A stretch of DNA of 64,000 bases, from IMG/VR virus record IMGVR_UViG_3300043009_000101. One strand, given 5' to 3'. Both the position numbers and the translations under genes were made by a program. Positions within the stretch are counted from its first letter, which is position 1. Every line of letters begins with the position of its first letter. Under the pieces are notes generated by a model that was not told where the DNA came from, did no database searches, and worked only from the letters and a program-made list of their open reading frames with translations. Shown piece by piece: positions 10,170-53,718 of the stretch. The DNA is from a virus (Duplodnaviria > Heunggongvirae > Uroviricota > Caudoviricetes).

Positions 10170-10174
10170 CAACA

Positions 10175-10480: not shown

Positions 10481-10499
10481 CATGAGAAAGGAAGCCTAT

Positions 10500-11834: not shown

Positions 11835-11874
11835 CTAAGCAGCCGCTCCGAAGGAGCGGCTGCTTTTGGCTGGT

Positions 11875-12650
11875 GCTAGATATTGTCTTGTGCTAGATAT
11901 TGTCTTGTGCATAATAGATACTGGTGCAAGATATAAACTCGTGCAAAACTAAAAACTTCGCCTGTATATTGCTAGGGCTGAAAAATACCCGATGAATGTG
12001 GCGGGAATAGAATTATTACCTATACAAAACAATAAAATTGCTCTGTGAAGATGGAAAGTTGGGCGAAGCAAAGTATAGTGCCAGCTAAGAACTACGGCAA
12101 ACAAGCAGTAAGGCAAGGCAGAAACTAATGCAGGCGGAAATTATGGTAAGATAAAAACTAATACAAGCAAGGGTGCGAGGTAACGAAATAAATTTCGTGC
12201 CTACGAAATTTATTATCTAGTGAAAGCTCTGCTTTCACTAGATAGAAAAGTTACCGAGGTCAGGCGAACGGAGTGAAGCCTAGGTTTCGCACCCTTGTAT
12301 TGTATAAAAAATACTAGTCTGATTCGTTGCGAATAAACATCTTGCCTGATTCCTTGCTAGTAGAGGAAATACAGACATCACAGAGTATAGATAATACGGA
12401 CACTGGCACACAGTAAGTGCTTGCACAAAAAGTAAAGGGCACAAGATTGTTTCTTGCACAAAGTAATGGAAAGCACAAGAAAATATCTTGCACAATACAA
12501 AGGGCGAATACTAGTGGCAATACCCGAATTTAGTGCTGAATTATACACTAATTATATAAATACTGATTTACATTTGTATATTGTTGTGCTAAAATAATGG
12601 CAGAAAGATATCTAGTAAAGATAAGAAAGAAAAACAAGAAAGATAAGGAG
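11875..12650. repeat. Non-coding repeat-rich region
   Basis: Tandem 'tgctagatattgtcttg' x2, composite hairpin caagggtgcgagg...(about 110 nt)...cctaggtttcgcacccttg (12166-12297), and reiterated 'ttgcacaa' motifs. Confidence 0.5.
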
Positions 12651-13799: not shown

Positions 13800-14600
13800 A
13801 TTTGTGGGCAAGCAAAAAGATTATATGTGCCTGAGTGAAAATGGTGCTAGATAATGGCTGGTGCTAGAAAGAAACTGGTGCAAGGAAGAAACTGGTACAG
13901 GCAGAAGCCAGTACAAGCAGAAATGCCCCGAAAAGAATAGGTATCCTTTTGGATTTGTCCCTCATACTAGGTAAATTGGGACAATTTACCTAGTATGAAA
14001 GCAAACCACGGGGTTTGCTTTCATCATAGGGGCAACCTATTCTGTACGGTAAATCCCTACTGGATTTACCGTACCATATGGGGCACTGGTACAAGCGGAA
14101 ACTGGTACAGGCAGAAACTGGTACAAGCAGAAACTGGTACAGGCAGAAACCAGTACAAGCAAAAACTTGTACAAGCAAGGAAGCGAAGTCCGTTGAGGGT
14201 GTATACCCGAAAACGAGGTCTCGCTTCCTTTTCTTGTTTAGAATAATATGAAAAATAAAAGAAAATTATACGACTTTTCTAAGAAAAAAGTAGATAAAGT
14301 TGTTCTTGTTCTAAAAGCTCAGAAAGTGAAGTTTCTGGACTTGCAGAAACTCGGAAAATGCGGTTTCTGAGCTTTTACGAAATAAAGCTCACCAGTATAT
14401 GTGCTGGGTGAAAAAATGAACAATTACCAATAACTATGCCTAGAAATCGCTCTAGTGTGAAATATTCGAAACAAGTGCTTTATATAAAGGTGATTTTGGC
14501 ACAAGATAGATACAGGCACAAGATAGATACAGGCACAAGATAGATACAGGCAAAGAAAGGCAGCCGTGCTATGCACGGCTGCCTTTTATTACAAATATAT
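13800..14600. repeat. Non-coding repeat region (copy of the 7.4-9.2 kb modules plus 16-bp and 18-bp tandem repeats)
   Basis: actggtacaRgcagaa x~5 (14086-14178); hairpin caaggaagcgaagtccg...cgaggtctcgcttcctt (14175-14232); gcacaagatagatacag x3 (14499-14552). Confidence 0.6.
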
Positions 14601-14615: not shown

Positions 14616-15548
14616 CTAGTGCGAGTTTCGGTCTGCCTGATGCAAGAGCAACAAGTCATTGTAAATACCCTCGCCTAGCAATTGGGTGTACTTCGCCTGC
14701 ATTTTTTGTTGGTTGCGGGTGTTCCAATTGTATGGGTGCATATGATAGCAGACGAGTGTGCTGACGAGAAGCTTATCGGCGGGATAATCATAAAATAAAG
14801 AAAGATACCCACCAACATTCGCATGCTGATAGTAATGCGAGATGCCGTTGGGGTCTGTGGTTTTCGTTCTGGGTTTGCCTATATCATGCAAGCTGGCTGC
14901 TATGGCAAGGGGAGAAGATGCGGGTGAGGAGAGAGCTACGGTGTTGGCAACTTCGCTTAGATGCTCGCCTAGGGTTCTGGTGTGATACGGGTTGTTCTGG
15001 TTGTAGTCTTGATACAGCTGCATTGGTGCAAGATAATCGCCATAATAGGTTGGGTAAGTTGAGGAGGGATAGTAAAGCTGTATATTATTCCACCCCTCGC
15101 CATAGCTCGGTGTGGTCCAGAGCCTGAGCATACGGTTGATAACTTTCTTGCCGGCATGTCTGCTTGGGCGAGATTTGTCTTGCTCGATGCATATCTCTGG
15201 CGGAGTGGCTACAATTATACAAGTACACTGCGGGAAAGGTGTGCTGGCTTTAGTACATGCTTCCCGTATCAGAGCAAGAGTGGGAATACGGTGCTTCGCC
15301 TGTAAATTCGTTGCATCATATATGACAGATTGCCCGTGAGTTATCGCTTCGGCTAGTCGCTGGTGCAATACCCGATAGAGTTCCTCATTCTTGCACTGCT
15401 CGTTCACATTGTGGAATAGTTCCTTGCGAAGTTCATCTGTGCTGAGCAAAATGGTTGGGTTTGAGGTGGAGCTGGCTGCGAGCAGCTGCTGTGCTAAGGT
15501 GCTCTTGCCACTTCCAGGCAAACCTACCAGCATCGTGAATTCTAACAT
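14616..15548 (-). CDS. Polynucleotide 5'-kinase (T4 Pnk-like P-loop) fused to an HD-domain phosphohydrolase
   Basis: GLPGSGKST Walker A, STDELR and VIYDATNL (compare T4 Pnk GCPGSGKST / VIISDTNL); C-terminal HD signature (SLHDIGK ... HQADRNSH). GC about 52%. Confidence 0.75.
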   Translation of the reverse strand: MLEFTMLVGLPGSGKSTLAQQLLAASSTSNPTILLSTDELRKELFHNVNEQCKNEELYRVLHQRLAEAITHGQSVIYDATNLQAKHRIPTLALIREACTKASTPFPQCTCIIVATPPEICIEQDKSRPSRHAGKKVINRMLRLWTTPSYGEGWNNIQLYYPSSTYPTYYGDYLAPMQLYQDYNQNNPYHTRTLGEHLSEVANTVALSSPASSPLAIAASLHDIGKPRTKTTDPNGISHYYQHANVGGYLSLFYDYPADKLLVSTLVCYHMHPYNWNTRNQQKMQAKYTQLLGEGIYNDLLLLHQADRNSH

Positions 15549-16852
15549 GGGCGGGAAACTCCTTGCACGGGGGAGGGCTGGTCGGAGAGTGTATTAAGAA
15601 AAGATTCTATCTCGTGCAATTTAAGGTATCTGCCTGCTCTTGTCTTGATGTAGTTGTTCTCTTTGCCGAGATACTCGTTCCGTACATACCCTCGATATGC
15701 TTTCGGTACATGCTGGTCTATCCACTGCATGTCGCTCTTGCGGTCTGGGTTGGTGCGGGCGGAGGAGAGCTGCATAATGTAGGAATGAGTGATGCTCTGC
15801 TTGGCTTGGATGTACTGGAACACGAGGGTGGCTTTGGCGAGGGCTTCTGGCTGATAGGCTGCGGGCAGCTTTGCATATAAGTCATCCCATGTGCCTTGGT
15901 CTATCGCTTGGATTATCGTGTTGGCTGAGGTGAGGGTGGCGAGAATCTTGTGCATGCCTACATAATCGTTGTACTTTATCTTGACTTTGTATCCGTCTAT
16001 GTCTAACACGAAGCCTTCGGCTTCGCTGCATTGCTTGCTGTCTAGGGCTTGGAGAACTTCGTCTAAGGTTGTTGTGTAAAGAGTTGTGGTAAGCAAATTG
16101 TAAGAGGCGGCGATGGTTGTAAGGAGGGAATAAGACAATTCCTCGCCTGTGGAAATGCTTCGCATTCCCACAAGGTATAAGCCTTGCTGCTCTTCGGTGT
16201 ATTGCACAATATGCTTATCGTTAAGGCTGATATACTCGAATATGGCTGTGTAATCCGAATAGGCTTGGAGGAATTGGAGATAGTTGGGATGCGACTGTAG
16301 GTAATGCATACCGCCAGCTAGACGATAACTAGATGCGGGGTCGAGGGACTGACTGCCTGACATGACAAGGTGGTTGTGAAACCACCTTGCACTTTGCATG
16401 GAACCGTCCAGCTTGTTCGTGAATTCTACACGATTGGCTGACTGTATGAGCTGCCGAATTCGTGCTTCGCTGTTCGCTTCGCACTCATTCAGATTCTGGA
16501 ACTTGCGGAATGGTGTGAGTATCAGCTCGCCTGTGTGAATGTCTAACACTAGACTGCGGCACTCTTTGTAGAATTCGTTGTGAACTTGCCAGAAATCTGG
16601 ATAGGATAAGGACTGGCTAATCGGCTTGAAGAGCTGATGAAAATTGCCGTATCGTATCAGCAGCATGCCTTCATATTCGTGGAAGATAAGCGGTGCTAAG
16701 AGTTCCGTGTAAGCGGGGTTGTCGAGTTGGGTGACCCAGTATTCTAGGCACGATGAAGATTCTGGATACTCCCAGAGTGCTTCTTCGCCAAATCGCTCGA
16801 TGTAGGCTGACTTGATTTCTTTGAACTTTGCTTGTACTGGATTCCAATTCAT
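15542..16852 (-). CDS. ATP-dependent RNA ligase (Rnl-type nucleotidyltransferase)
   Basis: Motif I KLDGSM, motif IV EGFVL, motif V KVKIK; overlaps the kinase gene by 7 nt (operon); GC-rich. Confidence 0.7.
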   Translation of the reverse strand: MNWNPVQAKFKEIKSAYIERFGEEALWEYPESSSCLEYWVTQLDNPAYTELLAPLIFHEYEGMLLIRYGNFHQLFKPISQSLSYPDFWQVHNEFYKECRSLVLDIHTGELILTPFRKFQNLNECEANSEARIRQLIQSANRVEFTNKLDGSMQSARWFHNHLVMSGSQSLDPASSYRLAGGMHYLQSHPNYLQFLQAYSDYTAIFEYISLNDKHIVQYTEEQQGLYLVGMRSISTGEELSYSLLTTIAASYNLLTTTLYTTTLDEVLQALDSKQCSEAEGFVLDIDGYKVKIKYNDYVGMHKILATLTSANTIIQAIDQGTWDDLYAKLPAAYQPEALAKATLVFQYIQAKQSITHSYIMQLSSARTNPDRKSDMQWIDQHVPKAYRGYVRNEYLGKENNYIKTRAGRYLKLHEIESFLNTLSDQPSPVQGVSRPC

Positions 16853-17259: not shown

Positions 17260-17399
17260 GCTATGCCAAGGTTAGCTATGCCAAGGTTAGCTATGCCAAG
17301 GTTAGCTATGCCAAGGTTAGCTATGCCAAGGTTAGCTATGCCAAGGTTAGCTATGCCAAGGTTAGCTATGCCAAGGTTAGCTATGCCAAGGTTAGCTAA
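17260..17399. repeat. Perfect tandem repeat, 15 bp x about 9.3 (gctatgccaaggtta)
   Basis: Directly visible; the + and - ORFs spanning it are repeat artefacts. Confidence 0.95.
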
Positions 17400-17455: not shown

Positions 17456-17494
17456 TTTATTAATTTTTTTTTGGGGGGTTGGAATGGGCAAGGA

Positions 17495-17590
17495 CAAGAG
17501 CAAGAGCAAGAGCAAGAGCAAGAGCAAGAGCAAGAGCAAGAGCAAGAGCAAGAGCAAGAGCAAGAGCAAGAGCAAGAGCAAGAGCAAGAG
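17495..17590. repeat. Hexanucleotide microsatellite (CAAGAG)16, preceded by T9 G6
   Basis: Directly visible; T9 at 17464-17472, G6 at 17473-17478; a G7 tract at 17165-17171. Confidence 0.95.
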
Positions 17591-17926
17591 CGTATTAGAT
17601 GTGAATTCTCTGCAAGATATCTTCATAGAAAGTAAAAAAAAATCGGAAATTTACTTTTCCGATTTAGAAAGGTGGTGGCTCAACAAGGCAGAAAGTGAGC
17701 TTAACGGGTTTTAACTACCTAAAACTTAGCATAGTTATTCCTTCTTTTAGGCCTTCTGAACATCTTTTATACAGTTTTTCCTTTCAAAAATGTGCTGTTA
17801 GCAGAAAATCTATCAAAAGCAAATCTAATATTAGTATATCTAATATTATATAAGAAACCCCAAGATACACAATATGCTATTAAAACAAAAGGAATGTTCT
17901 AAAACATTCCTTTCATTCTAAGTAAA

Positions 17927-20900
17927 CTACTTTATTTGTTTTTTCCTCTTTCTCTTATCTAATACGAGAATACCCCCTGCACTAGTACCAAGTACTAAAG
18001 GTGTTAGTGATTTAAATACGCCTGTTCCCTTTTTACTTTGTGCAGCTAACACTGGTGCTAGTGGTATTTCCTGTATTGCGTCCATACAAATTACCTCTAC
18101 TTGCATATTATCTTGTATATTAGTAATCGTAATTTGATTGTCTATTGGTGTGATATCTTGCTCTACTCCATCATAATATACAGCTTGAAACAAATACCCA
18201 TTGTCTGGTTGAATAGTTAAGGTTATATTCTCCCCTGCTTGTATATTATTCAATTTAGTAGCTTCCACTGAGCAATTTTGTGTATAAAGGTCTATTGCTA
18301 AATATTTTGCAAGTTCTATTTGAATTGTATGTGAAGTTTCTAAATTTTTAAATGTATAGGAAACCTCATACCCATTTACAGGGTATTTTTTACCATCAAT
18401 AATGATATTTGATACATAATACCCACCAGCTTCGTAATACACCGTAAAATCATCACCTTTATGCAATTTATTGTTGGTAGGTGTAATTGTACCTGTATTA
18501 ACAGACGTTTCAACTGTAATATAAGGCAGATACTCAACTGTAATGGTATGATTTTCTGTAATATTATCAAAAGTATACATGGAATTATTTGCTAAACAGG
18601 AATCCACGGAATCTACCGTATCCGACATATCTTCCATACTCTCTGAAACCAAACTAGTTTCTAGTTGAACAGTAGTATCTTCAACTTCTGTGAATTCCGT
18701 AACAGAACTACTAGTGTTATCTTGTGCAAGTAATTCTGAATCTGGCACAATATCTATATAGGAGGAATCCACTAATACACTATTTAAATAGCTATTTTCA
18801 TTAGGACTATATTCTATTTTTACGCTATCGCCTTTGCGTATATTAGTTACAGTTTTAGTAATATTACCATTCAGTACTTTGGTAGTAATCGTTTTAAAAG
18901 GCTCATATACAACTTCCAATGTATGATTAGTTTCATTTATTGGCACTAATACTGTATTCTCCTCCGTATCTTTTAAGGTAGACGTAATATCTTCACCATC
19001 TAAAACAGCGGTTAACAAATATGCATTTGTATTTGGTGAAAATACTACCGTATACGTATCCTGACCTTTACATTCAGAAAAAGAACTTGTAATGATACCA
19101 TTGGTAACTTTTGTAGAAACAGAATAGTAAGGTAAACACGTAACAGTTATCGCTTGGTCTGCTTCTATATTTTCAAAAGTATATTCTTGTGAAAAATCTG
19201 TCACAGAAACATACTTATTGTTAACAAGAATAGTATCAATATAATACCCTTCATTTGCCTTATAAGTAATCTTTTGACTTGTTCCTTGTTTCTGTTGGTA
19301 TATTGCAGGCGTAATTTCACCATTTGAAATACTGGTAATAATAGATACATACTTTTTGTAGACAACTTTAATATCATGAGAATCCGTAATATTCTTAAAA
19401 GTATAAGATGTTTGATTTTCAGTATGATTAATCAGCTCTCCATCCACAAGTATTGTGTCTAAATAATAATTTTCATCAGGCTGAAACTCAACTACAAACT
19501 CAGAATTCAGAGGTAAATTGACAGCAGATGGTGTAATTGTACCATTAGTTACTGAAGTTGTGATACCTTGGTACGCAGCATATTCAACCTTAATAGTATG
19601 GTCTTTATCTATATCATTAAAAGTATATGAATTAGTATTCTCCGTTGTAATAGCTACCTCAGTATCGTCCACAAGCAGCCTTTTTAAATAATAATTTTCA
19701 TAACCTTTATACTGCACTGTAAAGTTAGTATTTTGCTGTATTGTAGAACTTGATTCTGTAATTTCACCATTTATTACTGTTGTTTTTATAAAATTATATT
19801 TTTTACAAACTAATTGAATTGTATGGTCCGTGTTAATATTACTGAACGTATATGTATCAGGATTCTTCACAATATCTATGGATTTACCGTCTATAAGCAC
19901 TTCATATAAATAATAGCCGTCCTCCGGTTTATAGGTTACTGTCCTATTTTCTCCCGCTTTAATTGTACTGCTCCCACCTGTAATTGTTCCATGTGTGGAA
20001 TTCGTTTTGATACTTAAATATTTCTTATAATTAACTTCTATGTTTTGAGTTTCAGTAATATTCTTAAAAGCATATTCTTGTTCATACTTTGTAATATCTA
20101 GCTCATTACCATTCAACACAATAGAACTTAAATAATAGCCATTTACTGGTGCATATTGCACACTTGCAGAATAAGGCTGTTGCTGATTATATATAGATTC
20201 TGTTATTGTTCCATTTACAGCAGAAGTCAATATAGAAACATATTGCTTATAAACAACAGTAATAGTGTGTGCTTCAGTTACGTTGTTAAAAGTATATTCA
20301 TTCTTATAGACAGTAACATCTTGTGCAATACCGTCTACATCAACAGACGCTAGGTAATAATTCTCATCTTTTGGTGCATACTCTATGGTAACAGAGGAAC
20401 CTTGTGTAATACTGCTTATAGTTGGCGTTATTGTACCATTTGTTACAGTTGTATGTATGCCAGAATAAGGCTTATATTCTACTTCAATACTTTGCTCCGC
20501 ATTGATATTGGTAAAAGTATAAGCGGATGCATAACTTTTTGTAGAAACTTCTGCACCATTTACCTTAACAGATGCTAAATAATACGAATCGTCCGTAGCA
20601 TTATATGTAATTGTTTTATCAGTATTCTTTTTTATCTTAGAATCTGTACTTGTAATAGTGCCATTCTTTACAGATGTTGTTATTGAAAGGTATTTTTCGC
20701 AAGTTATATTTATAGTATGATTTTCTGTAATAGATGTAAAAGTATAAGAACTTTCATAAATATCTAAATCCTGTTCCTCATTATCAACCTGTACAGATGC
20801 TACATAATAACCGTCATTAGCCTCATAAGTAACAGTAGGTGTATCACCTTTCTTTAACTTATTTGATGCACCTGTTATTTTACCATTCGTAATACTTGCG

Positions 20901-23900
20901 TCAATAGAATAGTACGGTACGTAAATCACATCTATTGTTTGGTCTGACGTAATGGATGCAAATTTATATGAGGATTCATAAGTTTCAGAAGAAACTGAGG
21001 AATCATTTACTTTTACAGATTCCAAATAATAACCATCTTTTGCAGAATAAGTTATTGTTTTTGTTAAAGGTTGTTTCTGATTTATAACAGAAGCTGTTAT
21101 TATTCCATTTTCAACAGATGTTTTTATAGAAACATACTTCTTATATACTACGGCAATAGTATGACTGCCTGTTACATTAGAAAATGTGTAGGAATCAGCA
21201 TAAGTTGTACTTGAAACGGAAGAACCGTCTACTATAACAGAATCTAAATAATAACTATCATCTGTTGGTTCATACTCTATCGTCACAGAACTACCAGAAG
21301 TAACTGAGTCTAAGGATGGCGTAATTGTACCCCCCTGTTACAGAAGTCTGTATGCCGGAATATGGTGCATAGGTAACTTCTATTGTCTGGTTAGACGTTA
21401 TATTTGAAAAAGTATAAGAACTAGCATACGTAGATGTAGATACCGCTGCACCATTTACTTGCACAGACAACAAATAATAAGAAGAATTTTTTGGTGAATA
21501 AGTTACAGTTTTAGAACTACCTGATTTAATTGCACTATCCGTATCTGTAATTATACCATTTGAAACATTAGTATTAACAGATAAATATTTTGTACATACC
21601 ACTTCTATAGTATGATTTGCAGACACAGAAGAAAATGTATATGCACTAGCATAAGTTGTTAATGATACAACAGAACCATCTACTTTAATGGATGAAATAT
21701 AATAACCTTCATCCGCAGAATAAGTTATCTTAGCAGTATCCCCTGCTTTTAATGTAGTTGATGAACCCGAAATCGTACCATGTGTAATGCTCGCTGCCAC
21801 AGTATAATAAGGAGCATACTCTACTTCTATTGACTGGTCTGATGTTACAGCAGAAAACTTATAAGTGGAAGCATAAGTTGTTGTAGACACCGCTGAACCA
21901 TTCACCTTAACTGATGCTAAATAATAAGCCGCAGTATTCTGTGGTGTATAAGTAATTGTTGTTGTTAATGGTTGCTTCTGCTTTGTCAGAGAAGAAGTAA
22001 TTGTTCCATTTGTTGCAGCCGTAGTTATAGAAACATACTTTTTATACACAACAGAAATAGTCTGATTTGAAGTAATATTAGAAAAAGTATAGGAATCAGC
22101 ATAACTCGTTGTAGAAACGGAAGAACCATTTACAGTTACGGAATCAAGATAATAACTACTGTCAGTTGGTGCATACGTTACAGTCTGTGAACCCCCAGAT
22201 TTAACAGTAGAAGAAGTAGGTGTAATTGTTCCGCCTGTAACAGTAGCTGCTACAGTTAAATATTTTGTAAATACAACAACAACTGTGTGGTTAGCTGTTA
22301 TATTTGAGAAAGTATATGAATCCGGGTAATTTGTTAGGTTAATTGTGGTTCCGTCTACTTTTACAGAGGACACGTAATAACCTGTAGATGGCTCATATGT
22401 AATTGTTTTTGATGCACCTGATTTTAGTTGTGTATCTGATACTGTTACTGTACCTGAACCTGTTTTAGATGTAGTTACAGAATAATATTTACTACATGTT
22501 ACCACAACAGTATGATTAGCAGCAACATTGGGAAAGGCAACAGAATTATTGATTATATTACCAATCTGTTCTACATCATCTACTTTTACAGAAGATACGT
22601 AATAACCTGAATTCGGTGTGAAAGTTACTGTTTGTGTGCTACCAGCTGCAACTGTACCTGTTGTAGGCGTAATTGTTCCGTTTGTAATAGATGTGGTTAA
22701 AGTATACTCCGTTGGTGCAGCTACAATATCGTCCTCAATAATTTCAACGGTAGCTTCATTAGTAGATACGCCTGTAACAGAACTAGTTACAGTTGGATTC
22801 CAATCAACAAATCCAGTGGCATACGTATATTTTCCTGATGGCTCACTAGGAGACGTCATATTAATCAAAGCATATACCGTACTATCAGCAGGTACTGTTG
22901 CTGCAGAACCACTTGCTGTATTCAACTTAATAGCGATACCTTTTATGTTTTCTTTAGATACAGAATTTGAATAGGTCAGCCAACTATTTGTTGTATCAGT
23001 TAATAAGTTTGGAGCAGAACTTGTAGTATAATAAATTTTTGGTGTATAACCACCACTTATTAATGCGGAGGTATCTATACCTGTACATACACCGTTCCAA
23101 TTGTTTTTAGCAGCAGTATTAAAGTATGCATAAAGAACAACATCTGTCATAGCAGTACCACTTGTTGTACCCATAACTTTATACGTATAATTAGAATCTT
23201 TGTTTGTTGTTGCTTTGGAAGCATAGCCTAATGTTTGAGTACCTGTTGCTAATAAGGTTGCACCTAATTGACTTGAATAAGAATAAGTTATTGTTTTAGT
23301 TGTTGTAAGACAGTAAGAATCTTTATCAAAAACACCATTTGAATCTAAATCTAATGGCTCTGTTGTAATAGGTGCTATTTTATACGTAGAATTATCATCA
23401 TTTATATATGGTTCTGTATATGTTCCTTTTACACTACTGTATGTAGTCAAGGTGGTTGTTAATTTATTACTTACAAGCATACTTTTTAAAACATCTTTTT
23501 CAACAGTAACAGGCACATATATATATCTGGATAATAAGTTGCTTTCCCAATAGATTTTGTATTTAAAGGATTATCTGTAAAATCCAAATAAGCAACTACA
23601 TAATTTTTACCGTCTTTAGTTTGCAACTCTTTTTTAAAATAATTAGGCAATTCAGCGTATGTCAAAGATGTACCATCTTTTAAAACATATCTGGTAGAAC
23701 TCGTAGTAGTAGGTTTCTTCATGTAAACATCAGAAATATTTACGGAATACCCGTCTGGTATTTCAAAACAAACATAAATTCTATCTATATAATCATTTTT
23801 AGCTTGCTTAAAATGTATAATTGGATAAGATATAAAATTAAAAGTACACTCACCCGTCTCACTATTGGAAGTAGCATTAGAAATAGAATTGTAAGATTGA

Positions 23901-25780
23901 ATAAATAATAGACTACTTAAAAACCTAACAGAACCTATACTCCTATAGATTGTACTACCATAAAGAGAAGTATCCCTTGCATTAACCAAACTTAACACAG
24001 AAGAATCCCCATCACTGGTTTTGTACATAGTAGTAGGCATAGCTGTAGTTGTATTTGCTTTATACGCACTCATACCCCAGCAGAAATAGACTTTGGAATC
24101 AGCAGCATAAGAATTTGCAAGTAAAATATCAAAACTCATAACCTGTCTGCCAGAACTTGTTATCGTGCTATTTAAACCATAATACTTATACTTAATAGCT
24201 ACAACTTTCTTACTACTCAAATCAATACAATAACCTTGTACTCTGCTTAGACCCTCCTGTGTTTGTGAAGTCAAATCAGTGTCTGGCAAAAACAGAGTGT
24301 ATTCAGATGCACCTGCATATCTCACATATAACTCCATATTATAGTCACTTGTAGTCTGCTTTGTATGAAAAACTGTTTCTCTAACGCCGTTTGTTGTAGG
24401 CATACTTTCGGAAATATATGCGGCTGTGATAGTGTAATCGCTATCTGTCAAAATATGCTGCGTGGTATCCGTAGCATAAACAGTGTCCATATAAGTTTCC
24501 ACATCAATACTCGTACCAGTATAACTAAATAAAAGAGATGTCTTATTAACTGCGGAAGCTTCATTTTGCTGCACAGCAACATTTGCTTCTACATTCACAG
24601 CATTTGCATCTTGTGCTAAAGTCAAAGTTTTATTTGCAGACAAAATATGGCTACTTGCTGTTACTGTAAAGGTATTACTGCATATATCCTCCATTGTATA
24701 TGTATCATATCCCCAATAAGCACCTCGAATTTTACCAGTAAACGTTATTGTACCACTTGTTGTGGTAGTGACTGCAAAAATACCTCTAAATAAATCACCA
24801 GAATTGTTACAACTATTAATTTTTATTGTAACAGAACCATTTGTCGGCGTATACTTTACTTTATTGTAATAATAAACAATATTACTATCACTGCTTGTCA
24901 AAGTAACTTCCGTAGCATAATTTTCATAGGCACTAGCATCTGTTATACCCCGAACCCAACCAGAAGAGCAACTACCGTTCACTATTACATTAGATTGTCT
25001 TGGCGTTGTCATATATGCATAATTTAAAACACCATGTGTACCGTTTAAATTTGTAGATATAGCATTCTCATGTTGTATAATCTGAAAAACACTTTTTCCT
25101 ATATAATCTCCTTCTGGTAAATAATCTGTGGTGGAAACACTTTCCGTAGTAATCTTTCCTGTGTAGCTGCGTTTAGAACGAGATACTACTAAATCCACAC
25201 TTTGAGTGACAATTACTTTATCATTTACAAGCATATCTACTTTATAAGTGTAAGTTTTGTCTTTTAAATACTGCACATAATTTTGCATCTGACTAGACGC
25301 AAAATTTAAAGATAAAGCAATTGTACCCTCTGCTGCACTGCCGGATGAATACGACTTTTTAGATGCCTCTAAACAATATCTGTCTGTTGTTCCAACTAAA
25401 CTTCCTTTAAAATTCGTATCTGTTAAAGGTGTAACATCAAAGAAAGCGGTATCGCCATAATCTGTAAGATTCATACCTGTGTATGTTTCCGATGCGGAAT
25501 ATACTCTAAAGGCTAATTTTCCAGCGGATAGGCTACTGCTTAAACTAGAATTGCTATAGTCTACCACTAGGGAGTATGCATCAGATGTATTTACAGATGT
25601 TGTTACGCTACTGGTATAAGTGGAGTTCTGATACCAGTTTACTTTCATCTGCCAACCATTGCTGCCACTCACATAGCTATTTGCTGTGCTTGCTTCTGCT
25701 GTTGCGGAACTGCCTGAATGCAACGAACCTAGCAAAAGTGGTATGCCTACAAGCAAAATCTTTTTTAATTGCTTTCGCAT
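17927..25780 (-). pseudogene. Giant (about 2620 aa) repeat-containing surface protein gene split into 3 ORFs by two frameshifts at simple-sequence tracts
   Basis: ORFs 23486..25780 (signal peptide plus N-terminal domain), 21291..23516 and 17927..21286 align collinearly with the intact paralogue 25941..31103. Breaks fall at (AT)5 23507-23516 and G6 21330-21335. Confidence 0.7.
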
Positions 25781-25940
25781 AACTATTCCTCCTATTCATA
25801 CAATATACAAAATTATTCTGTTTTAAGTATATTGTCATATCATTTCATTCATTTGGCAAATATTACGGAAAAAATATACTATAAAACATCAAACTAAAAC
25901 AAAAGGAATGCTATAAAGCATTCCTTTCTTCTTTAACAAA

Positions 25941-28900
25941 TTACTTTGTTTGTTTCTTCTTCTTTCGCTTTTCTAATGCAAGAATACCCGCTGCACTAGC
26001 ACTAAGAACTAAAGGAGTAATGGATTCAGATACGCCTGTGCCCTTTTTGCTTTGGGAAGCTAACACAGGTGCTAATGGTTCCAATGTTTCTTTTGTTACA
26101 ATGTCTTTGTAAATAATCTCAACTTGCATATCTGCTTGCATATTATCTATTACTATTTGATTATTTGTAGGTGTAATATCTTGTTCCATACCATCATAAT
26201 ACACAGATTGGAATACAAAACCATCTTTCGGTGTGATAGTAAGTGTTACATATTCACCACGCTTAATAGTATTAGTATTAGAAGCTTCTACATCACAATT
26301 TTGTGTTAAAACATTCAAATGTAAATACTGAATATAATCAGCAGTAATTGTATGTGAGGCATCAAGATTCTGGAATGTATACCCGTTTGTATATGAGTCT
26401 ACGGATACATCTTCACCATCTATCTGCAAGCTATCTAAATAATAATCTTCATTTGGCTCATATGTTACAGTATAATCATCTCCAAAATGTAATTTGGTAT
26501 TTGTATCTGTTATCTGTCCATTTGTAGAAGCTGTATCTACGGTTAAATACGGGAGATATTCAACATTTATCGTATGATTTTCTGTAATATTCTCAAATGT
26601 ATAAGAAGAATTATACGTTGCAGTCATAGCTTGTGTATCCTCAGCAGCATTTACTTCAAGTATATTTTCGGAAAGTATGCCACTTGCAGTATTATCAGTT
26701 AAATCTGATGCAATTTCTACGGGTTTACCGTCTACAACAACACTATTTAGATAAGAATCCGTATTAGGAGCATAAGTTACTTGCACAGTATCCCCTTTGC
26801 GAACTTTTGTTACAGTATCTGTAATTGTTCCATTCTTTACTTTTGTTGTAATTGTCTTAAAAGGCTCATATATCACTTTTAATTGATGATTACTATTCTC
26901 AATAGAAATGGCTACGGTATCTTGCTCTGTATCTTTTAAAGTTGCTGTTATATCTGTACCATCTAATGTTGCAGAAAGCAAATAACAATTCTCGTCTGGC
27001 TCTATCATTACAGTATAAATACCTGTACCTTCACACTGAGAAGAAGATTCTGTAATTTTACCATTTGTGGCTTCTGTGTTTACTGCATAATAAGGCAGAC
27101 ATTCAACAGTAATAGTCTGGTCTTCCGTAATATTTGTAAAAGTATACGTATTAGAATCTTCATTAATCGGAATATCTTTTGTATTTACTTTAATTGAGGC
27201 AATATAATATCCTTCGTCTGCTGAATAAGTAATATCATGATTTGTTCCTTGCTTTTGATTATAAATAGAAGGAGTTATCTGCCCGTTTTTAACATCGGTA
27301 ATAATAGAAACATATTTCTTATATACAATATCTATTGTATGACCTTCTGTTATATTTGTAAAAGTATATGCATTTGCATAAGTATTCTTATCTACGGCTG
27401 CACCATCTACGGTAACGGAATCCAAATAATAATTTTCGTCTTGCGGTATATATTCTACGGTAGCGGAAGAACCTGACGTAATATTAGATGTATTAGATGT
27501 TATTGTACCACCTGTGATTGTAGCTTGTATACCTAAATATTCTGTAAATACAATATCTACTGTGTGATTCTCTGTAATATTATCTAACTTATAAGAATTA
27601 GGGTATTTTGATAAATCAACTAACACACCATCAACTTTTACAGAAGATACATAATACCCGCTGGCTGGTGTATATTCAATCGTTTTAGAATCACCACTTT
27701 TTAATTCTGCATCAGATTCTGTTACAGTACCTGAGCCTGTTTTAGCTGTAATTACTGAAAAATAAGGCTCGCATGTAACGTCTACAGTATGATTTGCATC
27801 AATATTCGTAAATGCCAAAGTATTATTTGTGATAGTTGCAATCTGCTCTACATTATCTACTTTTACAGAAGATACATAATACCCTGACTTTGGTGTAAAT
27901 GTTACAGTTTTAGTATCGCCTGCTTGCACTACACATGTTGTTGGTGTAATTGTTCCATTTGTAATAGATGTTGTTAATGTATATTCCTTTTCTATATCAT
28001 CAGCAAACATTTCAACGGCAGCCTCATTGGTAGATAAGCCTTTGATATCACTAGCTACGGTTGGCTTCCAGTCAATGAATCCTGTTGCATAGGTGTACTG
28101 CCCTTTAGGTTTACTAGGTGAAGTCATATTTATTAATGCATAAAAAGAATTCCCTGCTGCTACATTTGCGGATGTACCACTGGAATTATTCAATTTTATT
28201 GCTATTCCTTTGATTTCAGATTTTGTAACTGATTCAGAATATGTATCCCATTTATTAGAGGAATCAGACAATAAACCTGGCGAATCACTTGTTGTATAAT
28301 ATATCTTTGGCGAGTATCCCGCACTTTTCAATGCAGATGTGTCTACGGAAGAGAATGTACCTGTCCAATCATTTTTGGAGGAAGTATTAAAGTAAGTATA
28401 GAGAGCTACGTCTGTCATCTCTACTCCGCTTGTTTCACCAATGATTTTAAATGTGTAATTAGAATCTTTATTTGTAGTACTTTGTGTTGCATAACCTAAT
28501 GTCTGTGTTCCTGTTGATAATAAAAGGCTGTTAATTTGAGTGGAATAAGAATATGATATAGATGTATTATATGTTTTTTTGGCAGCTATATAATTTGTTA
28601 GACCATCCCCGGCTACGTCAAAAGGTTCTTCTACAAAATTCCCCTCCGCACCTAAGGTACTGTATTTTGTATCTGGAATATCCTCCACCAAACTCAGATA
28701 GGTATCTATATTGATATTCACTTTATTATCTTGAACAATATCTTTCAAAACTTGAGAATCAGCAGACAAAGTGAAACTAATATCACCTATTGCTATTACT
28801 TCAGTACATTTTGCAGTATCAATAGGATTCTCAGAGAAATCAAAATCTACTATTAAATAATTAAAAGAATCTTGGTTATACACCTTATACGTTATATAAT

Positions 28901-31103
28901 TACTTATTGTATCCTTATTAACTATGGTACCGTCCCTTAGATATATTTTATCATTGTTTCCTGCATACATATAACTAATACCACTATTTAAAAACTCTAT
29001 GCCTGCCATATTTACCGAGAAATCTTCGGGTATAGCATAATACAAGTATAAATGCTTAATGTAATTACTTTTTGATTTACGCAAATCCAACGAAAAAGCT
29101 GTACTTACTGGTACATTTAAAGAACCAGTAGCTGTATCAATATAACTAATAGATTCAAATGGGTCATAATAATCTGCATGAAGTATACCATACAACCCTA
29201 CGGATAGAGATGCATCTAATATATTTGTAACATACGTAGTATCTGCTAGACTTCTAAATCTATATTTACCATAAGTTGTCATATCGTATTGCATTACTAA
29301 CTTTGTTAACTCTGTATTCTCAAAATTAAGGGACGTTATATTCGCCAGTAAAGAATCATCTGTACCAGTTTTGTACATATCCGCATAATAACTAAAATAC
29401 ACCTTGGAATCCTCTAACAATTCCTTTTTCAACTGTGCATCTACCCCAACACCAAAAGAACTAGATAAACTTTTAGACAATCCAATAAGTTTAAATTTAA
29501 CTGCAACAATATCTTCACTACTACTTAAAGCAATATATTTTAGACCAGTATGCTCCGTAGAAGTATTCCAGTTTTCGTCTAACCATAGAATATAATTAGA
29601 TGAGTCAGCATACTTTACATATATTTCAAAATTATAATCACTTGTATTATTTGTATGCAACTTAATAGCAGTCCTTTTTGCATCTGTTACGATATAAGCG
29701 TCCGCAAAATAAACACCTTTTATGGCATACTCTGTATTATTCAATTGTACCTGCGTACCATCTTGGTCTAGGCCATACATAGAATCCATACCTATCTCAA
29801 CGTCATAAGGCACACCTGTATAAGTTGTTGTAATACCTTTCTGGTTAGCATAGCCTATGCTATTTGTATTAATAGCCCTAGTTGAAGATGAATAATTCCA
29901 AAATTGTATACTACCTTCACCCGTAAAAACATACTTACTTGTATCCACAGTCAGAGTTTTATCATAAAGTGTGCTACGAGATGACATAGTATCATAGCCT
30001 AAGTAGCAGCCTGTAACTTTTACACCTAATTTCAAGGAACTACTAACTGTACTTGAACAAATATATAAATTAGGTACTAAATATTTAAAGGTTGAGTTAC
30101 TATTTGAAACTAGTTTAACAGTTATAATACCATTATTTACTGTATATTTTGTATCATTATAATAAATAAAATCATCCCCATCAAGACCAGTTATTGTTAC
30201 TTCGGGAGCATATTGTTCATATAAACTCACATCATTTAGACCGTATATCGCACCATAGCCTAGGGTATTACCCGTGCTGGCAGCCCCTTTGTTCTTGTAA
30301 AGTAAACTGTAATTCAAAGCACCATGTACACTGCTAGAATCCTCACCAAGTAATCCGTATAAATAAAAAATTGTTTTATTTGTATAATCACCCTCTGGTA
30401 AAGAATCTATGGATGCCTTATGTGTATAAAATGCTCTTGTACTATAATCAACATTCTCTCTATCTACTTGAAAGGAAACATCTTGTGTTGCATATACACT
30501 ATCTCCAATAAGTAATTGTACTGTGAAACTATATGTTCTATCTTTCATATAATTCGCCATTCTAAGAAACTTCATATCCCTAGTAATACCACTGGCTGGT
30601 TCAAACGAAAAAGACAATGTACCTATGGCAGCGTTACCACTAGTATATGATGTATTAGATGCCTCCAATGTATAACTATAATCATCTGCATATGTTCCCG
30701 TAAAATTATTATCTGTCAAAGTATTTACAGGATAATATACATTATCACCAAATACAGAACCTGTATAAGTATCATAAGGTGCCAATACTTTAATCTTAAA
30801 ATCTCCGGCTTTTATAGAACTACTTAATTTACTATTATTATAATCTACCACCAATGAGTATATGTCCGAACTTTCCAGTGAACTTGTTACGCTACTGGTA
30901 TACGAAGAATTTACATACCAATTCGCCTTAAGCTTCCAACCATCTGTGCCTGACACATAATCATTTGCGGATGTTGCATCTACAACCAATGAATCGGAAT
31001 TAGTACTAATATCTGCGTTAGTTGCTTTTCCCGTAGCAGCTAATGCCAGTAATACAGATACTATTGGTATGTACAGTTTGAATTTTTTTAATTTTCCCAA
31101 CAT
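25941..31103 (-). CDS. Giant cell-surface protein (1720 aa): signal peptide, ~950-aa N-terminal region, ~9 tandem ~80-aa beta-repeats, C-terminal hydrophobic anchor plus KR tail
   Basis: AAAGGAG RBS; N-terminus MLGKLKKFKLYIPIVSVLLALAATGKA; repeat consensus TITYxAxDGYYLxSVKVNGxxVSxxxYxxxYTFxNITxxHTIxVxY; C-terminus ...QSKKGTGVSESITPLVLSASAAGILALEKRKKKKQTK. Confidence 0.85.
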   Translation of the reverse strand: MLGKLKKFKLYIPIVSVLLALAATGKATNADISTNSDSLVVDATSANDYVSGTDGWKLKANWYVNSSYTSSVTSSLESSDIYSLVVDYNNSKLSSSIKAGDFKIKVLAPYDTYTGSVFGDNVYYPVNTLTDNNFTGTYADDYSYTLEASNTSYTSGNAAIGTLSFSFEPASGITRDMKFLRMANYMKDRTYSFTVQLLIGDSVYATQDVSFQVDRENVDYSTRAFYTHKASIDSLPEGDYTNKTIFYLYGLLGEDSSSVHGALNYSLLYKNKGAASTGNTLGYGAIYGLNDVSLYEQYAPEVTITGLDGDDFIYYNDTKYTVNNGIITVKLVSNSNSTFKYLVPNLYICSSTVSSSLKLGVKVTGCYLGYDTMSSRSTLYDKTLTVDTSKYVFTGEGSIQFWNYSSSTRAINTNSIGYANQKGITTTYTGVPYDVEIGMDSMYGLDQDGTQVQLNNTEYAIKGVYFADAYIVTDAKRTAIKLHTNNTSDYNFEIYVKYADSSNYILWLDENWNTSTEHTGLKYIALSSSEDIVAVKFKLIGLSKSLSSSFGVGVDAQLKKELLEDSKVYFSYYADMYKTGTDDSLLANITSLNFENTELTKLVMQYDMTTYGKYRFRSLADTTYVTNILDASLSVGLYGILHADYYDPFESISYIDTATGSLNVPVSTAFSLDLRKSKSNYIKHLYLYYAIPEDFSVNMAGIEFLNSGISYMYAGNNDKIYLRDGTIVNKDTISNYITYKVYNQDSFNYLIVDFDFSENPIDTAKCTEVIAIGDISFTLSADSQVLKDIVQDNKVNINIDTYLSLVEDIPDTKYSTLGAEGNFVEEPFDVAGDGLTNYIAAKKTYNTSISYSYSTQINSLLLSTGTQTLGYATQSTTNKDSNYTFKIIGETSGVEMTDVALYTYFNTSSKNDWTGTFSSVDTSALKSAGYSPKIYYTTSDSPGLLSDSSNKWDTYSESVTKSEIKGIAIKLNNSSGTSANVAAGNSFYALINMTSPSKPKGQYTYATGFIDWKPTVASDIKGLSTNEAAVEMFADDIEKEYTLTTSITNGTITPTTCVVQAGDTKTVTFTPKSGYYVSSVKVDNVEQIATITNNTLAFTNIDANHTVDVTCEPYFSVITAKTGSGTVTESDAELKSGDSKTIEYTPASGYYVSSVKVDGVLVDLSKYPNSYKLDNITENHTVDIVFTEYLGIQATITGGTITSNTSNITSGSSATVEYIPQDENYYLDSVTVDGAAVDKNTYANAYTFTNITEGHTIDIVYKKYVSIITDVKNGQITPSIYNQKQGTNHDITYSADEGYYIASIKVNTKDIPINEDSNTYTFTNITEDQTITVECLPYYAVNTEATNGKITESSSQCEGTGIYTVMIEPDENCYLLSATLDGTDITATLKDTEQDTVAISIENSNHQLKVIYEPFKTITTKVKNGTITDTVTKVRKGDTVQVTYAPNTDSYLNSVVVDGKPVEIASDLTDNTASGILSENILEVNAAEDTQAMTATYNSSYTFENITENHTINVEYLPYLTVDTASTNGQITDTNTKLHFGDDYTVTYEPNEDYYLDSLQIDGEDVSVDSYTNGYTFQNLDASHTITADYIQYLHLNVLTQNCDVEASNTNTIKRGEYVTLTITPKDGFVFQSVYYDGMEQDITPTNNQIVIDNMQADMQVEIIYKDIVTKETLEPLAPVLASQSKKGTGVSESITPLVLSASAAGILALEKRKKKKQTK

Positions 31104-32969: not shown

Positions 32970-34181
32970 TTATGATGCTTGCAGCATTATCAACATTGTA
33001 AGAAGTCGCTTATCTTGTGTTCCTAATGTTCGGAAACTTCCGTAATACCGATTTTCACTGGCTGATGCTAATGCTAAATCAGAAAAATTATCCAGCACAT
33101 AATCGTAATCTTCGGAATTTGTAAATCTTACTTCAATGTAGGCATCATCTGAAATCATAGCATTAAAATTGTCATCAAGCAAGGTTTGAAACTCGTCTGT
33201 GCTAGATACCACCATGCCGTTACGAACAATATAGTTATCTTCCGTAGCAGTAGCAGTTGGTGAAGTTCCTCGCTCAGTTAGATTAATGCTATCGTCACGA
33301 GATTGTGCCATATCATCCGATGTCAAATTGAAGTATCTGTGGCTGATAAAGTCTGTTGTATTCTCTACTTCATCTTTATCAGTATTTGGGTCATCCCAAG
33401 AAACATCAACATAATACCAGTTATCATTGATATTCACGAAATTCCATTCATGCCCCATTGTTTCACCATCTGAATTTGTTGCATTTCCTACAACACTTCC
33501 GCATTGGATACCTAACTGATTCATCAAATAAGTGAATGTGCTGGCATACCCCATGCAGTTGGCTTTTCCCTCAATCAATGCTCCGTACATGGTGCGGAAG
33601 GAAGGCATAGAATTTTCTACATCTTCTTCATTGTCTGTGTAGTATTCAATATTGGAAACCATATAGTCGTGCACAAATAATTCTGCTTCATACTCGCTGG
33701 TTGTATTTGCTTTTACTTGGGTAACAATAGAATCTACAACAGCATTGACTTCGGCAAGTTTGGATTGGTATTCTTCCTTGGTCATAGTATAGACAGGTTT
33801 GTATTGAATCGCTTCTTCTGTGTTGTTTGACATGTAGTTATACTCATAAGATAAAGCACAATAGAAGATTTCAGGATGTTCCGACATCAAGATACCGTCA
33901 ATCTTTTTTAATGTATCTAATGGAACACTGTCAATATCAATCTCTTCGTCCCAATTTATAATACCCTCATAAATCAGATTGTAAGTATTCTTATCTTCTT
34001 CACTTAGATTGTCGTAATACCAATAACCTTCCAGCTGGTCTGGAATGGTTTTATCTTTTACTTCATATACAATAGGTTCTTCTTCCTCAACATGCTCCAA
34101 TTCTGGCACAAAGTCGCAGCCTGCCAAGGTGAAAGCAAGGCTGGTAGCAAGTCCTACCTTTAATAATCTATTAAAACTCAT
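32970..34181 (-). CDS. Lipoprotein with a transglutaminase-like cysteine-protease domain
   Basis: Lipobox FTLAGC; Cys-His-Asp core ANCMGYAS...GHEWNFV...YYVDVSWDDP. Confidence 0.7.
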   Translation of the reverse strand: MSFNRLLKVGLATSLAFTLAGCDFVPELEHVEEEEPIVYEVKDKTIPDQLEGYWYYDNLSEEDKNTYNLIYEGIINWDEEIDIDSVPLDTLKKIDGILMSEHPEIFYCALSYEYNYMSNNTEEAIQYKPVYTMTKEEYQSKLAEVNAVVDSIVTQVKANTTSEYEAELFVHDYMVSNIEYYTDNEEDVENSMPSFRTMYGALIEGKANCMGYASTFTYLMNQLGIQCGSVVGNATNSDGETMGHEWNFVNINDNWYYVDVSWDDPNTDKDEVENTTDFISHRYFNLTSDDMAQSRDDSINLTERGTSPTATATEDNYIVRNGMVVSSTDEFQTLLDDNFNAMISDDAYIEVRFTNSEDYDYVLDNFSDLALASASENRYYGSFRTLGTQDKRLLTMLIMLQAS

Positions 34182-52313: not shown

Positions 52314-52319
52314 ATTTCC

Positions 52320-53715: not shown

Positions 53716-53718
53716 CAA

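What the first reader, a model, noticed from the sequence alone, without database searches (positions are those of the whole stretch)
17927..25780. Giant surface-protein gene broken exactly at an (AT)5 dinucleotide tract and a G6 homopolymer, consistent with phase variation or homopolymer sequencing error
- The three ORFs 23486..25780, 21291..23516 and 17927..21286 are collinear with the intact 1720-aa paralogue next door.
- First junction: (AT)5 at 23507-23516. Removing one AT unit fuses ...TYYPDIY to VPVTVEKDVL..., which aligns with the paralogue's ...DISFTLSADSQVLKD.
- Second junction: G6 on the coding strand (C6 at 21330-21335). Removing one G gives ...SVTGG-TITPSLDSV..., matching the repeat consensus.
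- Both lesions lie on slippage-prone simple-sequence tracts.
Basis: partly seen in the sequence, partly recalled or inferred. Interest (0 to 1): 0.75.

Follow-up and report, generated by a model that had tools for sequence, protein, structure and literature searches.

The report
Surface-protein gene broken by two slippage frameshifts
One copy of a duplicated giant cell-surface protein gene has been cut into three pieces by two small insertions at short simple-sequence runs; the breaks are real, identical in every available assembly, and most likely mark a young pseudogene rather than an on/off switch.

Summary
ORFs 25780..23486, 23516..21291 and 21286..17927 (- strand) are one gene. Deleting one AT unit and one G gives a single 2,616-codon ORF with no other stop.

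Both frameshift intervals hold a rare tract. This is the only (AT)>=5 in 64 kb and one of five G/C>=6 runs (joint chance about 1e-4). Internal repeat units place lesion 2 exactly in the G run.

Sequencing error is unlikely. Eight independently assembled contigs (six JGI, two SRA runs) carry the same three fragments. One JGI contig differs from the window by a single hexamer-repeat unit in about 41 kb.

Phase variation is not shown and is disfavoured:
- Both tracts are one unit below published cut-offs.
- They are absent from the paralogue and from homologous repeat units.
- They lie mid-gene.
- Two reversions would be needed to restore the full protein.

No recoding signals were found, and fragments B and C lack Shine-Dalgarno-led starts.

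Best reading: a recent slippage pseudogene, or a truncated 764-aa secreted derivative, in a family with at least four intact paralogues. The replicon is an unidentified element of at least 577 kb in a low-GC Gram-positive-type host. This is ordinary biology and of low interest.

The parts
23486..25780 (-). Fragment A: codons 1-754 of the original gene plus a 10-codon out-of-frame tail (MCLLLLKKMF*). It carries the signal peptide and most of the N-terminal head.
   Evidence: ORF list and translation. It is 34% identical to the paralogue's head. ATG 25780 is preceded by an AGGAGG Shine-Dalgarno sequence.
25788..25793 (-). Shine-Dalgarno sequence AGGAGG, 7 nt upstream of ATG 25780. It is the only strong ribosome-binding site of the whole 7.85-kb unit.
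   Evidence: Sequence read. The start-codon/Shine-Dalgarno scan finds none in the first 120 codons of the B or C frames.
23517..23526 (-). (AT)5 tract, lesion 1. One extra AT unit relative to the in-frame state (AT)4. It moves reading from frame 2 to frame 1.
   Evidence: It is the only (AT)>=5 tract in the window. The alignment to the paralogue is ungapped once one unit is removed.
21291..23516 (-). Fragment B: the rest of the head (54% identical to the paralogue) and repeat units 1-6, then a 12-codon out-of-frame tail. It has no start codon led by a Shine-Dalgarno sequence and no signal peptide.
21330..21335 (-). G6 on the coding strand, lesion 2. One extra G relative to the in-frame G5 (GTA ACA GGG GGT ACA). 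It returns reading to frame 2.
   Evidence: homologous units have exactly 3 nt where this unit has 4. It is the only G/C>=6 run inside a coding region of the window.
17927..21286 (-). Fragment C: repeat units 7 to about 20, then the C-terminal sorting-signal-like end (SKKGTG, about 17 hydrophobic residues, KRKRKKQIK).
   Evidence: Pfam Flg_new_2 hit.
17880..17913 (-). Hairpin plus T-run just after the TAG stop of fragment C. It is homologous to the terminator that follows the paralogue.
   Evidence: Read from the sequence: AAAGGAATGTTTTAGAACATTCCTTTTGTTTTA against AAAGGAATGCTTTATAGCATTCCTTTTGTTTTA.
25901..25928 (-). Intrinsic terminator of the upstream paralogue (12-bp stem plus T-run). It separates the two transcription units.
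   Evidence: Terminator scan and sequence.
25941..31103 (-). Intact tandem paralogue of 1,720 aa: signal peptide, head of about 1,040 aa, about 9 repeat units and the same type of C-terminal end. It serves as the reference for the repair.

Best explanation
The 7.85-kb stretch is a single gene for a giant secreted cell-surface protein.

Protein layout when repaired (2,616 aa):
- a signal peptide;
- a beta-rich head of about 1,000 aa, which it shares with a sparse uncharacterised family;
- about 20 tandem units of about 75 aa of the divergent InlB-B-repeat (Flg_new_2) type;
- a C-terminal hydrophobic segment with a basic tail.

The gene is a tandem duplicate of the intact 1,720-aa gene upstream. 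It has its own Shine-Dalgarno sequence and its own terminator.

Two replication-slippage insertions of one repeat unit each, (AT)4->(AT)5 at codon 754 and G5->G6 at codon 1483, have broken it. Translation from the only ribosome-binding site now stops at 23486. The product is at most a 764-aa secreted head fragment without stalk or anchor. Fragments B and C are untranslated remnants.

The lesions are real DNA changes and are fixed at consensus level in the one known strain. The absence of any other stop in 2,616 codons means the inactivation is recent. At least four intact family members on the same replicon make the loss tolerable.

Shown: gene unity, the position and nature of both lesions, their reproducibility across assemblies, and the lack of independent starts. 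Inferred: slippage as the mutational mechanism, pseudogene status, recency and surface location.
For: Gene unity and repair:
- A single ORF results from deleting one AT unit and one G.
- Frame analysis confines the shifts to 82-bp and 44-bp intervals.

Position of the lesions:
- Each interval holds a tract that is rare in the window.
- DNA of homologous repeat units pins lesion 2 to the G run.
- The alignment to the paralogue is ungapped through lesion 1 after repair.

Expression signals:
- AGGAGG precedes A and AAGGAG precedes the paralogue. No start led by a Shine-Dalgarno sequence occurs in the first 120 codons of the B or C frames.
- Homologous terminators follow both genes.

Reproducibility:
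- The same fragments are called on 6 JGI/IMG and 2 Logan contigs. No longer variant sits in their 90% clusters.
- DNA is identical over both tracts in JGI 3300035506, SRR11793927 and SRR11793928.
- A 16-copy hexamer array nearby does differ between assemblies.

Tract properties:
- Both tracts are below phase-variation cut-offs (PMC6321876).
- Neither tract is conserved in the paralogue or in sister repeat units.

Redundancy and protein type:
- There is a tandem paralogue plus a second cluster of three remote paralogues in the same samples.
- Remote relatives have the same head followed by Cna_B or MucBP stalks and C-terminal membrane-anchor-like ends.
Against: - No reads were available, so sub-consensus tract-length variants cannot be excluded.
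- All eight assemblies are essentially one clone: 0 substitutions in about 41 kb against the JGI contig. 'Fixed' therefore means fixed in one lineage over a short time.
- No orthologue from another strain exists in the databases searched, so the ancestral tract lengths are inferred, not observed.
- The complete lack of further decay in 1,862 downstream codons fits a reversible OFF state equally well.
- Lesion 1 is placed in the AT tract mainly on statistical grounds. The local homology score only weakly prefers it (+2 against -1 BLOSUM62).
Confidence: 0.6

Rival explanations
1. Contingency locus. The two tracts act as reversible slippage switches. Between them they toggle three products: a 764-aa secreted head, a secreted head of about 1,495 aa with six repeats, and the full 2,616-aa anchored protein. 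The sampled population happens to be OFF/OFF.
For: - Both lesions lie exactly on simple-sequence tracts.
- There is no other damage in 2,616 codons.
- The product is a surface protein in a multigene family, the usual setting for phase variation.
- The replicon shows active repeat slippage elsewhere: 16 against 17 hexamer copies.
Against: - G6 and (AT)5 are below the cut-offs of >=7 and >=6 units (PMC6321876). That paper notes that even tracts at the cut-offs may switch too slowly.
- The tracts are not conserved in the paralogue or in homologous repeat units.
- They lie mid-gene.
- Double reversion is needed for the full-length product.
- All 8 assemblies show identical lengths.
Confidence: 0.2
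2. Sequencing or assembly artefact. The true tracts are G5 and (AT)4, and the gene is intact.
For: Homopolymers and dinucleotide runs are classical sites of indel error. Both lesions are single-unit insertions.
Against: - The same lengths appear in independent assemblies from a JGI metagenome and two SRA runs. The same fragment proteins are called on six JGI contigs.
- Longer runs in the window (A10, A9, T9, G7) show no disagreement between assemblies.
- Other long genes are intact: the 1,720-aa paralogue and the 659-aa LigA.
Confidence: 0.04
3. Programmed recoding. Ribosomes shift -1 (or +2) near the first junction and +1 at the G run, and so make the full-length protein from the frameshifted mRNA.
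For: - A lysine-codon run, TTG AAA AAG, lies two codons before the stop of frame A. It resembles the A AAA AAG -1 slippery site only imperfectly.
- GGG GGG would allow tRNA-Gly re-pairing in the +1 frame.
Against: - There is no stimulatory RNA structure downstream of either site. The folds are weaker than shuffled controls, with z +1.4 and +2.0.
- No upstream Shine-Dalgarno-like stimulator is present.
- The first base of the heptamer does not fit X XXY YYZ.
- Two different recoding events would be needed in one gene.
- The paralogue and the remote relatives are single ORFs.
- A shift at AAAAAG would add a residue and a hydrophobic MCLLLLKK stretch that does not match the paralogue.
Confidence: 0.03
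4. Three genuine separate genes, as the automatic annotation calls them.
For: JGI and Logan gene callers list products of 764, 741 and 1,119 aa.
Against: - B and C start at GTG codons with no Shine-Dalgarno sequence and have no signal peptide.
- The breaks fall inside a conserved head region and inside a repeat unit.
- The three are collinear with one paralogue.
Confidence: 0.02

Closest known systems
Frameshift pseudogenes made by replication slippage at short homopolymer or dinucleotide runs in redundant bacterial surface-protein (adhesin) genes
   Same: One-unit insertions sit at simple-sequence tracts. An intact paralogue lies next door. The downstream fragments lack starts. The lesions are identical in all sampled genomes.
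   Different: There are two lesions and no other decay. No orthologues exist to date the events. The replicon is an unidentified element of at least 577 kb.
SSR-driven phase-variable (contingency) genes of Campylobacter, Neisseria, Haemophilus and mycoplasmas (PhasomeIt criteria, PMC6321876)
   Same: Intragenic G and AT tracts whose length sets the reading frame of a surface-protein gene in a multigene family.
   Different: The tracts are shorter than the accepted cut-offs. They are not conserved in homologues, lie mid-gene rather than near the 5' end, and show no length variation. Two tracts are OFF at once.
Gram-positive MSCRAMM-type wall-anchored adhesins (head plus Cna_B, MucBP or other Ig-like stalk repeats plus a C-terminal sorting signal)
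   Same: Signal peptide, large head, long array of beta-domain repeats, C-terminal hydrophobic segment with a basic tail. Remote relatives of the head carry Cna_B and MucBP stalks.
   Different: There is no LPXTG motif and no match to anchor models. The stalk is made of Flg_new_2 / InlB-B-like units. The head has no Pfam family.
Inocles, giant plasmid-like elements of oral Streptococcus that encode LPXTG-like surface proteins (PMC12340149)
   Same: A large low-GC element that consists mostly of hypothetical genes, with DNA-repair genes and secreted, anchored surface proteins.
   Different: This is only an analogy for the context. No sequence relationship was tested or found. The size here is at least 577 kb, against about 395 kb for Inocles.

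Membership tests
SSR-mediated phase-variable (contingency) locus | Tract long enough to be hypermutable (published cut-offs: >=7 G/C, >=6 dinucleotide units) | tested here: not met
   G6 and (AT)5. Cut-offs from PMC6321876.
SSR-mediated phase-variable (contingency) locus | A change in tract length toggles the reading frame of the gene | tested here: met
   Removing one unit at each tract restores a 2,616-codon ORF.
SSR-mediated phase-variable (contingency) locus | Tract-length polymorphism within or between populations | tested here: inconclusive
   All 8 contigs carry the same fragments, and 3 assemblies are identical in DNA. The samples are one clone, and reads were not available.
SSR-mediated phase-variable (contingency) locus | Tract conserved as a feature of homologous genes | tested here: not met
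   The paralogue has no G>=5 or (AT)>=4 tract. Sister repeat units read AAT GGT or GGC GGA at the same place.
Frameshift pseudogene | Reading frame disrupted relative to an intact homologue, with collinear fragments | tested here: met
Frameshift pseudogene | Downstream fragments lack their own translation signals | tested here: met
   No start led by a Shine-Dalgarno sequence in the first 120 codons of the B or C frames. A and the paralogue have AGGAGG and AAGGAG.
Frameshift pseudogene | No full-length product is made | not testable with these tools
   This needs proteomics or ribosome profiling. The RNA folds give no support for recoding.
LPXTG sortase-anchored surface protein | LPXTG (or accepted variant) motif recognised by anchor models | tested here: not met
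   No Gram_pos_anchor or LPXTG model hit in Pfam or NCBIfam, even at E<=1. The sequence reads SKKGTG.
LPXTG sortase-anchored surface protein | N-terminal signal peptide, and a C-terminal hydrophobic segment followed by a basic tail | tested here: met
   By inspection of the translations: MRKQLKKILLVGIPLLLGSLHSGSSATAEA... and ...LTPLVLGTSAGGILVLDKRKRKKQIK. No predictor was run.
Programmed ribosomal frameshift site | Canonical slippery sequence plus a downstream stimulatory structure, conserved in homologues | tested here: not met
   Only an imperfect G AAA AAG is present. Downstream folds are weaker than shuffled controls. The paralogue is a single ORF.
Flg_new_2 (divergent InlB B-repeat) domain proteins, PF18998 | Match to the Pfam model above the gathering score | tested here: met
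   63.8 bits (paralogue), 36 bits (B) and 24.4 bits (C) against a cut-off of 23.6. About 20 units were found with a locally built HMM.

The most novel reading that the evidence does not exclude
The two short tracts form a two-step contingency switch on a giant extrachromosomal element. Slippage at (AT)n and Gn would let the element present its host with a surface protein in three forms: a secreted head, a secreted head with a short stalk, or the full wall- or membrane-anchored 2,616-aa fibre. The element, or its host's lack of mismatch repair, would make tracts as short as 5-6 units switch at useful rates.
Probability: 0.1. Interest if true: 0.45.

Novelty: new member of a known kind. Interest (0 to 1): 0.2.

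Why it matters
The practical value is for annotation. The three 'hypothetical proteins' called in public assemblies are fragments of one 2,616-aa surface-protein gene. The lesions are genuine and not sequencing errors.

Biologically, it is a textbook case of a redundant duplicate lost to slippage at short simple-sequence runs. It would gain interest only if reads showed tract-length heterogeneity, because that would show phase variation on a giant extrachromosomal element with unusually short tracts.

The surrounding replicon is the more unusual object. It is at least 577 kb, consists mostly of unknown genes, holds many perfect tandem repeats and carries a family of giant surface proteins. It deserves its own look.

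Tried and rejected
- Searches for other strains or tract-length variants. I used patterns with a variable-length gap across each tract. There were no matches in viral contigs, genome contigs or metagenome contigs. The pattern itself works on the window. These collections evidently do not hold the element.
- Word-indexed protein search with the repaired N-terminal 1,173 aa. It found only fragment A and the paralogue.
- The same search with the last 450 aa of fragment C. It returned nothing, even though C is in the collection. I treat this as a failure of the tool's sensitivity, not as evidence.
- AlphaFold2 on the paralogue's head with a 3-row alignment. Mean pLDDT was 39.4, too poor for a fold search, so none was run.
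- Genome-contig scan with the remote relative P0128. It matched only Cna_B stalk repeats in assorted Firmicutes and other MAGs, which says nothing about the head or the host.
- Phage and plasmid collections. LigA is at most 43% identical to phage records, and the head has no plasmid match.
- Borg identity, suggested by the perfect tandem repeats. I set it aside because expression signals are bacterial (AGGAGG Shine-Dalgarno sequences, intrinsic terminators) and LigA's named relatives are Lachnospiraceae/Eubacteriales.
- Literature search for the sample accessions found nothing.
- The T10 run at 37282-37291 looked like a possible switch. It is the U-tract of a terminator.
- Look-ups of P0130 and P0132 failed. 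P0206 worked.
Full report
**1. The observation**

- On the - strand, three ORFs follow one another: 25780..23486 (A, 764 aa), 23516..21291 (B, 741 aa) and 21286..17927 (C, 1,119 aa). They lie downstream of an intact 1,720-aa ORF at 31103..25941.
- A six-frame analysis shows the coding frame going 2 -> 1 -> 2. The first change must fall in 23489-23570 and the second in 21294-21337, the only stretches where both frames are open.
- The coding strand reads ...TAT TAT CCA G(AT)5 GTG CCT... at the first junction and ...GTA ACA GGGGGG TAC AAT TAC GCC... at the second.
- Deleting one AT unit and one G gives a 7,851-nt ORF of 2,616 codons with no internal stop. It is 40% identical to the paralogue over residues 1-1588 and 48% over the C-terminal 690 residues.

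**2. Are the lesions really in the tracts?**

- Statistics. The window holds exactly one (AT)>=5 tract and five G/C runs of >=6. The other four runs (17165, 17473, 41515, 44368) are all intergenic. The chance that a random 82-bp window and a random 44-bp window both contain any strong simple-sequence tract is about 1e-4.
- Lesion 2. The gene's own repeats give a DNA-level answer. Sister units read GTAACA-AAT-GGTACAATAACGCCA and GTAACT-AAT-GGTACAATTACACCA. The broken unit reads GTAACA-GGGG-GGTACAATTACGCCA. So 4 nt stand where one codon should be, inside the G run.
- Lesion 1. The alignment with the paralogue runs ungapped through the repaired junction: PDIY-VPVTVEK-DVLK against GDIS-FTLSADS-QVLK. 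The alternative of staying in frame A up to the AAAAAG run adds a residue and scores lower (-1 against +2). That discrimination is weak. The placement rests mainly on the uniqueness of the tract.

**3. One gene, not three**

- A is preceded by AGGAGG at 7 nt and the paralogue by AAGGAG. The first 120 codons of the B and C frames contain no start codon with a Shine-Dalgarno sequence.
- B and C have no signal peptide.
- A strong terminator (25928-25901) follows the paralogue. A homologous hairpin with a T-run follows C. The locus is therefore a tandem duplication of a complete transcription unit.

**4. What the protein is**

- A and the paralogue start with typical signal peptides. Both genes end in SKKGTG, about 17 hydrophobic residues and a KRK-rich tail.
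- Pfam finds only Flg_new_2 (divergent InlB B-repeat). A local HMM counts about 20 units of about 75 aa in the repaired protein and about 9 in the paralogue. Lesion 2 falls at the start of unit 7.
- No LPXTG or anchor model matches.
- A profile of the head of about 1,000 aa, searched against 1.84 billion representatives, found 78 remote relatives beyond the window's own three sequences. These are mostly 1,000-2,400-aa proteins matched at corresponding positions.
- The five relatives I scanned carry Cna_B or MucBP stalks or no Pfam domain. Most of the 19 I inspected have signal peptides and C-terminal hydrophobic ends.
- Two of these relatives (1,488/1,511 aa and 1,512 aa) and a 1,217-aa one lie together elsewhere in the same samples. 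The replicon therefore has at least four intact family members.
- A structure prediction of the head was too poor to use (pLDDT 39).

**5. Sequencing error?**

- Fragment A and the paralogue are each found on the same 8 contigs: JGI 3300035506 and five further JGI contigs, four of them 0.2-1 Mb and the longest 576,898 bp, plus Logan assemblies of SRR11793927 and SRR11793928.
- B and C occur as proteins of 741 and 1,119 aa on 6 JGI contigs and on 1-2 Logan contigs. Their 90% clusters hold no longer member.
- The DNA of L001-L007 is identical to the window across both tracts.
- The JGI contig is a different assembly from the window, because its CAAGAG array has 17 copies against 16.
- Independent assemblies agreeing at G6 and (AT)5, and at A10, A9, T9 and G7 elsewhere, make error very unlikely.

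**6. Phase variation?**

In favour:
- the tract-located lesions;
- the absence of further damage;
- the surface-protein family setting.

Against:
- The tracts are one unit below the cut-offs used to nominate phase-variable genes (>=7 G/C, >=6 dinucleotide repeats). The authors of those cut-offs caution that even tracts at the cut-off may switch too slowly (PMC6321876).
- The paralogue has no comparable tract, and sister repeat units lack the G run.
- The tracts lie at codons 754 and 1483.
- Two reversions are needed for the full-length product.
- No assembly shows another length, although a truly unstable repeat 3.7 kb away from the G6 tract does vary.

The power of this last point is limited. 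The assemblies are essentially clonal, with 0 substitutions in about 41 kb, and I could not see reads.

**7. Recoding?**

- TTG AAA AAG lies two codons before the stop of frame A, and GGG GGG could allow +1 re-pairing.
- The 100 nt downstream of each site fold more weakly than shuffled controls (z +1.4 and +2.0).
- The heptamer is imperfect.
- Two different events would be required.
- The homologues are single ORFs.

I rate this at about 3%.

**8. Conclusion**

The most likely history is this. A tandem duplicate of a giant surface-protein gene acquired two one-unit slippage insertions, (AT)4->(AT)5 and G5->G6. It now encodes at most a 764-aa secreted head fragment. The event is recent, because there is no other decay, and it is tolerated because intact paralogues remain. 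A slow, reversible switch cannot be excluded without reads.

My probabilities:

| Reading | Probability |
|---|---|
| Pseudogene | 0.6 |
| Phase variation | 0.2 |
| Sequencing or assembly error | 0.04 |
| Programmed recoding | 0.03 |
| Three separate genes | 0.02 |
| Unassigned | remainder |

**9. Context**

- The window and its flanks encode LigA, UvrD, RNase HIII, DEDD exonucleases, three Dcm methyltransferases, an IceA-like nuclease, an RNA ligase with a kinase/HD partner, and an IscB-type nuclease with its HEARO RNA. Otherwise there are unknown proteins, no tRNAs and no Rfam hits at gathering threshold.
- LigA's nearest relatives are unnamed metagenome proteins at 55-57% identity, then Lachnospiraceae/Eubacteriales at about 45%.
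- Nothing similar is in the phage, plasmid, IMG/VR or GTDB collections.
- Together with the 576,898-bp contigs, this suggests a giant extrachromosomal or phage-like element of a low-GC Gram-positive-type host. I did not establish that.

**10. Novelty and score**

The phenomenon is well known. The gene and its family are new and unannotated. Interest is 0.2.

Noticed in passing
window 10122-11834 (+): IscB/OMEGA-type locus. A HEARO RNA (RF02033) match at 10122-10392 scores 82.3 bits, just under the gathering score of 83, with E 2.6e-16. It lies directly upstream of a 450-aa RRXRR + HNH protein at 10482-11834.
   Followed up: partly
window 7548-7602, 11873-11910, 13858-13896, 14085-14177, 14498-14556, 17260-17398, 51398-51460, 53590-53720, 61467-61523, 61948-61994, 62127-62194, 63584-63907: Many perfect or near-perfect tandem repeat arrays with 15-17, 21 and 29-31 bp units, up to 9 copies. 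They lie mostly between genes, and several units share GCCAAG / GCAAGATAG-like cores. This density is unusual and recalls the tandem repeats of Borg elements, but the expression signals here are bacterial. Their function is unknown.
   Followed up: partly
window 17484-17714 (+), repeat 17495-17591: (CAAGAG)16 lies in frame in a small ORF reading MGKD(KS)16VLDV... The JGI 3300035506 contig has 17 copies. This is the only difference found in about 41 kb compared between the two assemblies. T9 and G6 runs sit just upstream of its ATG.
   Followed up: partly
window 14616-16852 (-): RNA-repair-like gene pair: a T4-type RNA ligase (RNA_lig_T4_1) at 15542-16852 overlaps an AAA_33 kinase + HD phosphohydrolase at 14616-15548. 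The pair sits at the point where gene orientation switches from + to - and cumulative GC skew peaks.
   Followed up: no
window 40135-41343, 48650-49639, 51585-53516 (-): Three DNA cytosine-5 methyltransferase genes. One is adjacent to an IceA (NlaIII-like endonuclease) homologue at 51585-52313.
   Followed up: no
L008 6217-19260 (Logan SRR11793928_7706); same layout in L009: A second cluster of three intact remote paralogues of the giant protein (1,512, 1,217 and 1,511 aa) lies next to two DUF285 proteins, in the same samples as the window. Their C-termini carry different xxxTG-like motifs (LPANTG, EQSTG) before the hydrophobic end.
   Followed up: partly
window 32970-34181 (-): A transglutaminase-core protein. 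Its best NCBIfam match is the MAG6410 family of transglutaminase-related lipoproteins, at E 6e-27 but far below the curated cut-off. It lies three genes upstream of the paralogue, and a SecG-like 73-aa gene lies just before the paralogue.
   Followed up: no
whole window and flanks (L024, L025): The replicon is unidentified. Contigs reach 576,898 bp. Genes are mostly unknown apart from replication and repair enzymes (LigA, UvrD, RNase HIII, exonucleases). No tRNA or rRNA lies in the 64 kb. Nothing similar is in the phage, plasmid, IMG/VR or GTDB collections. It may be a new giant extrachromosomal element of a Firmicutes-like host.
   Followed up: partly
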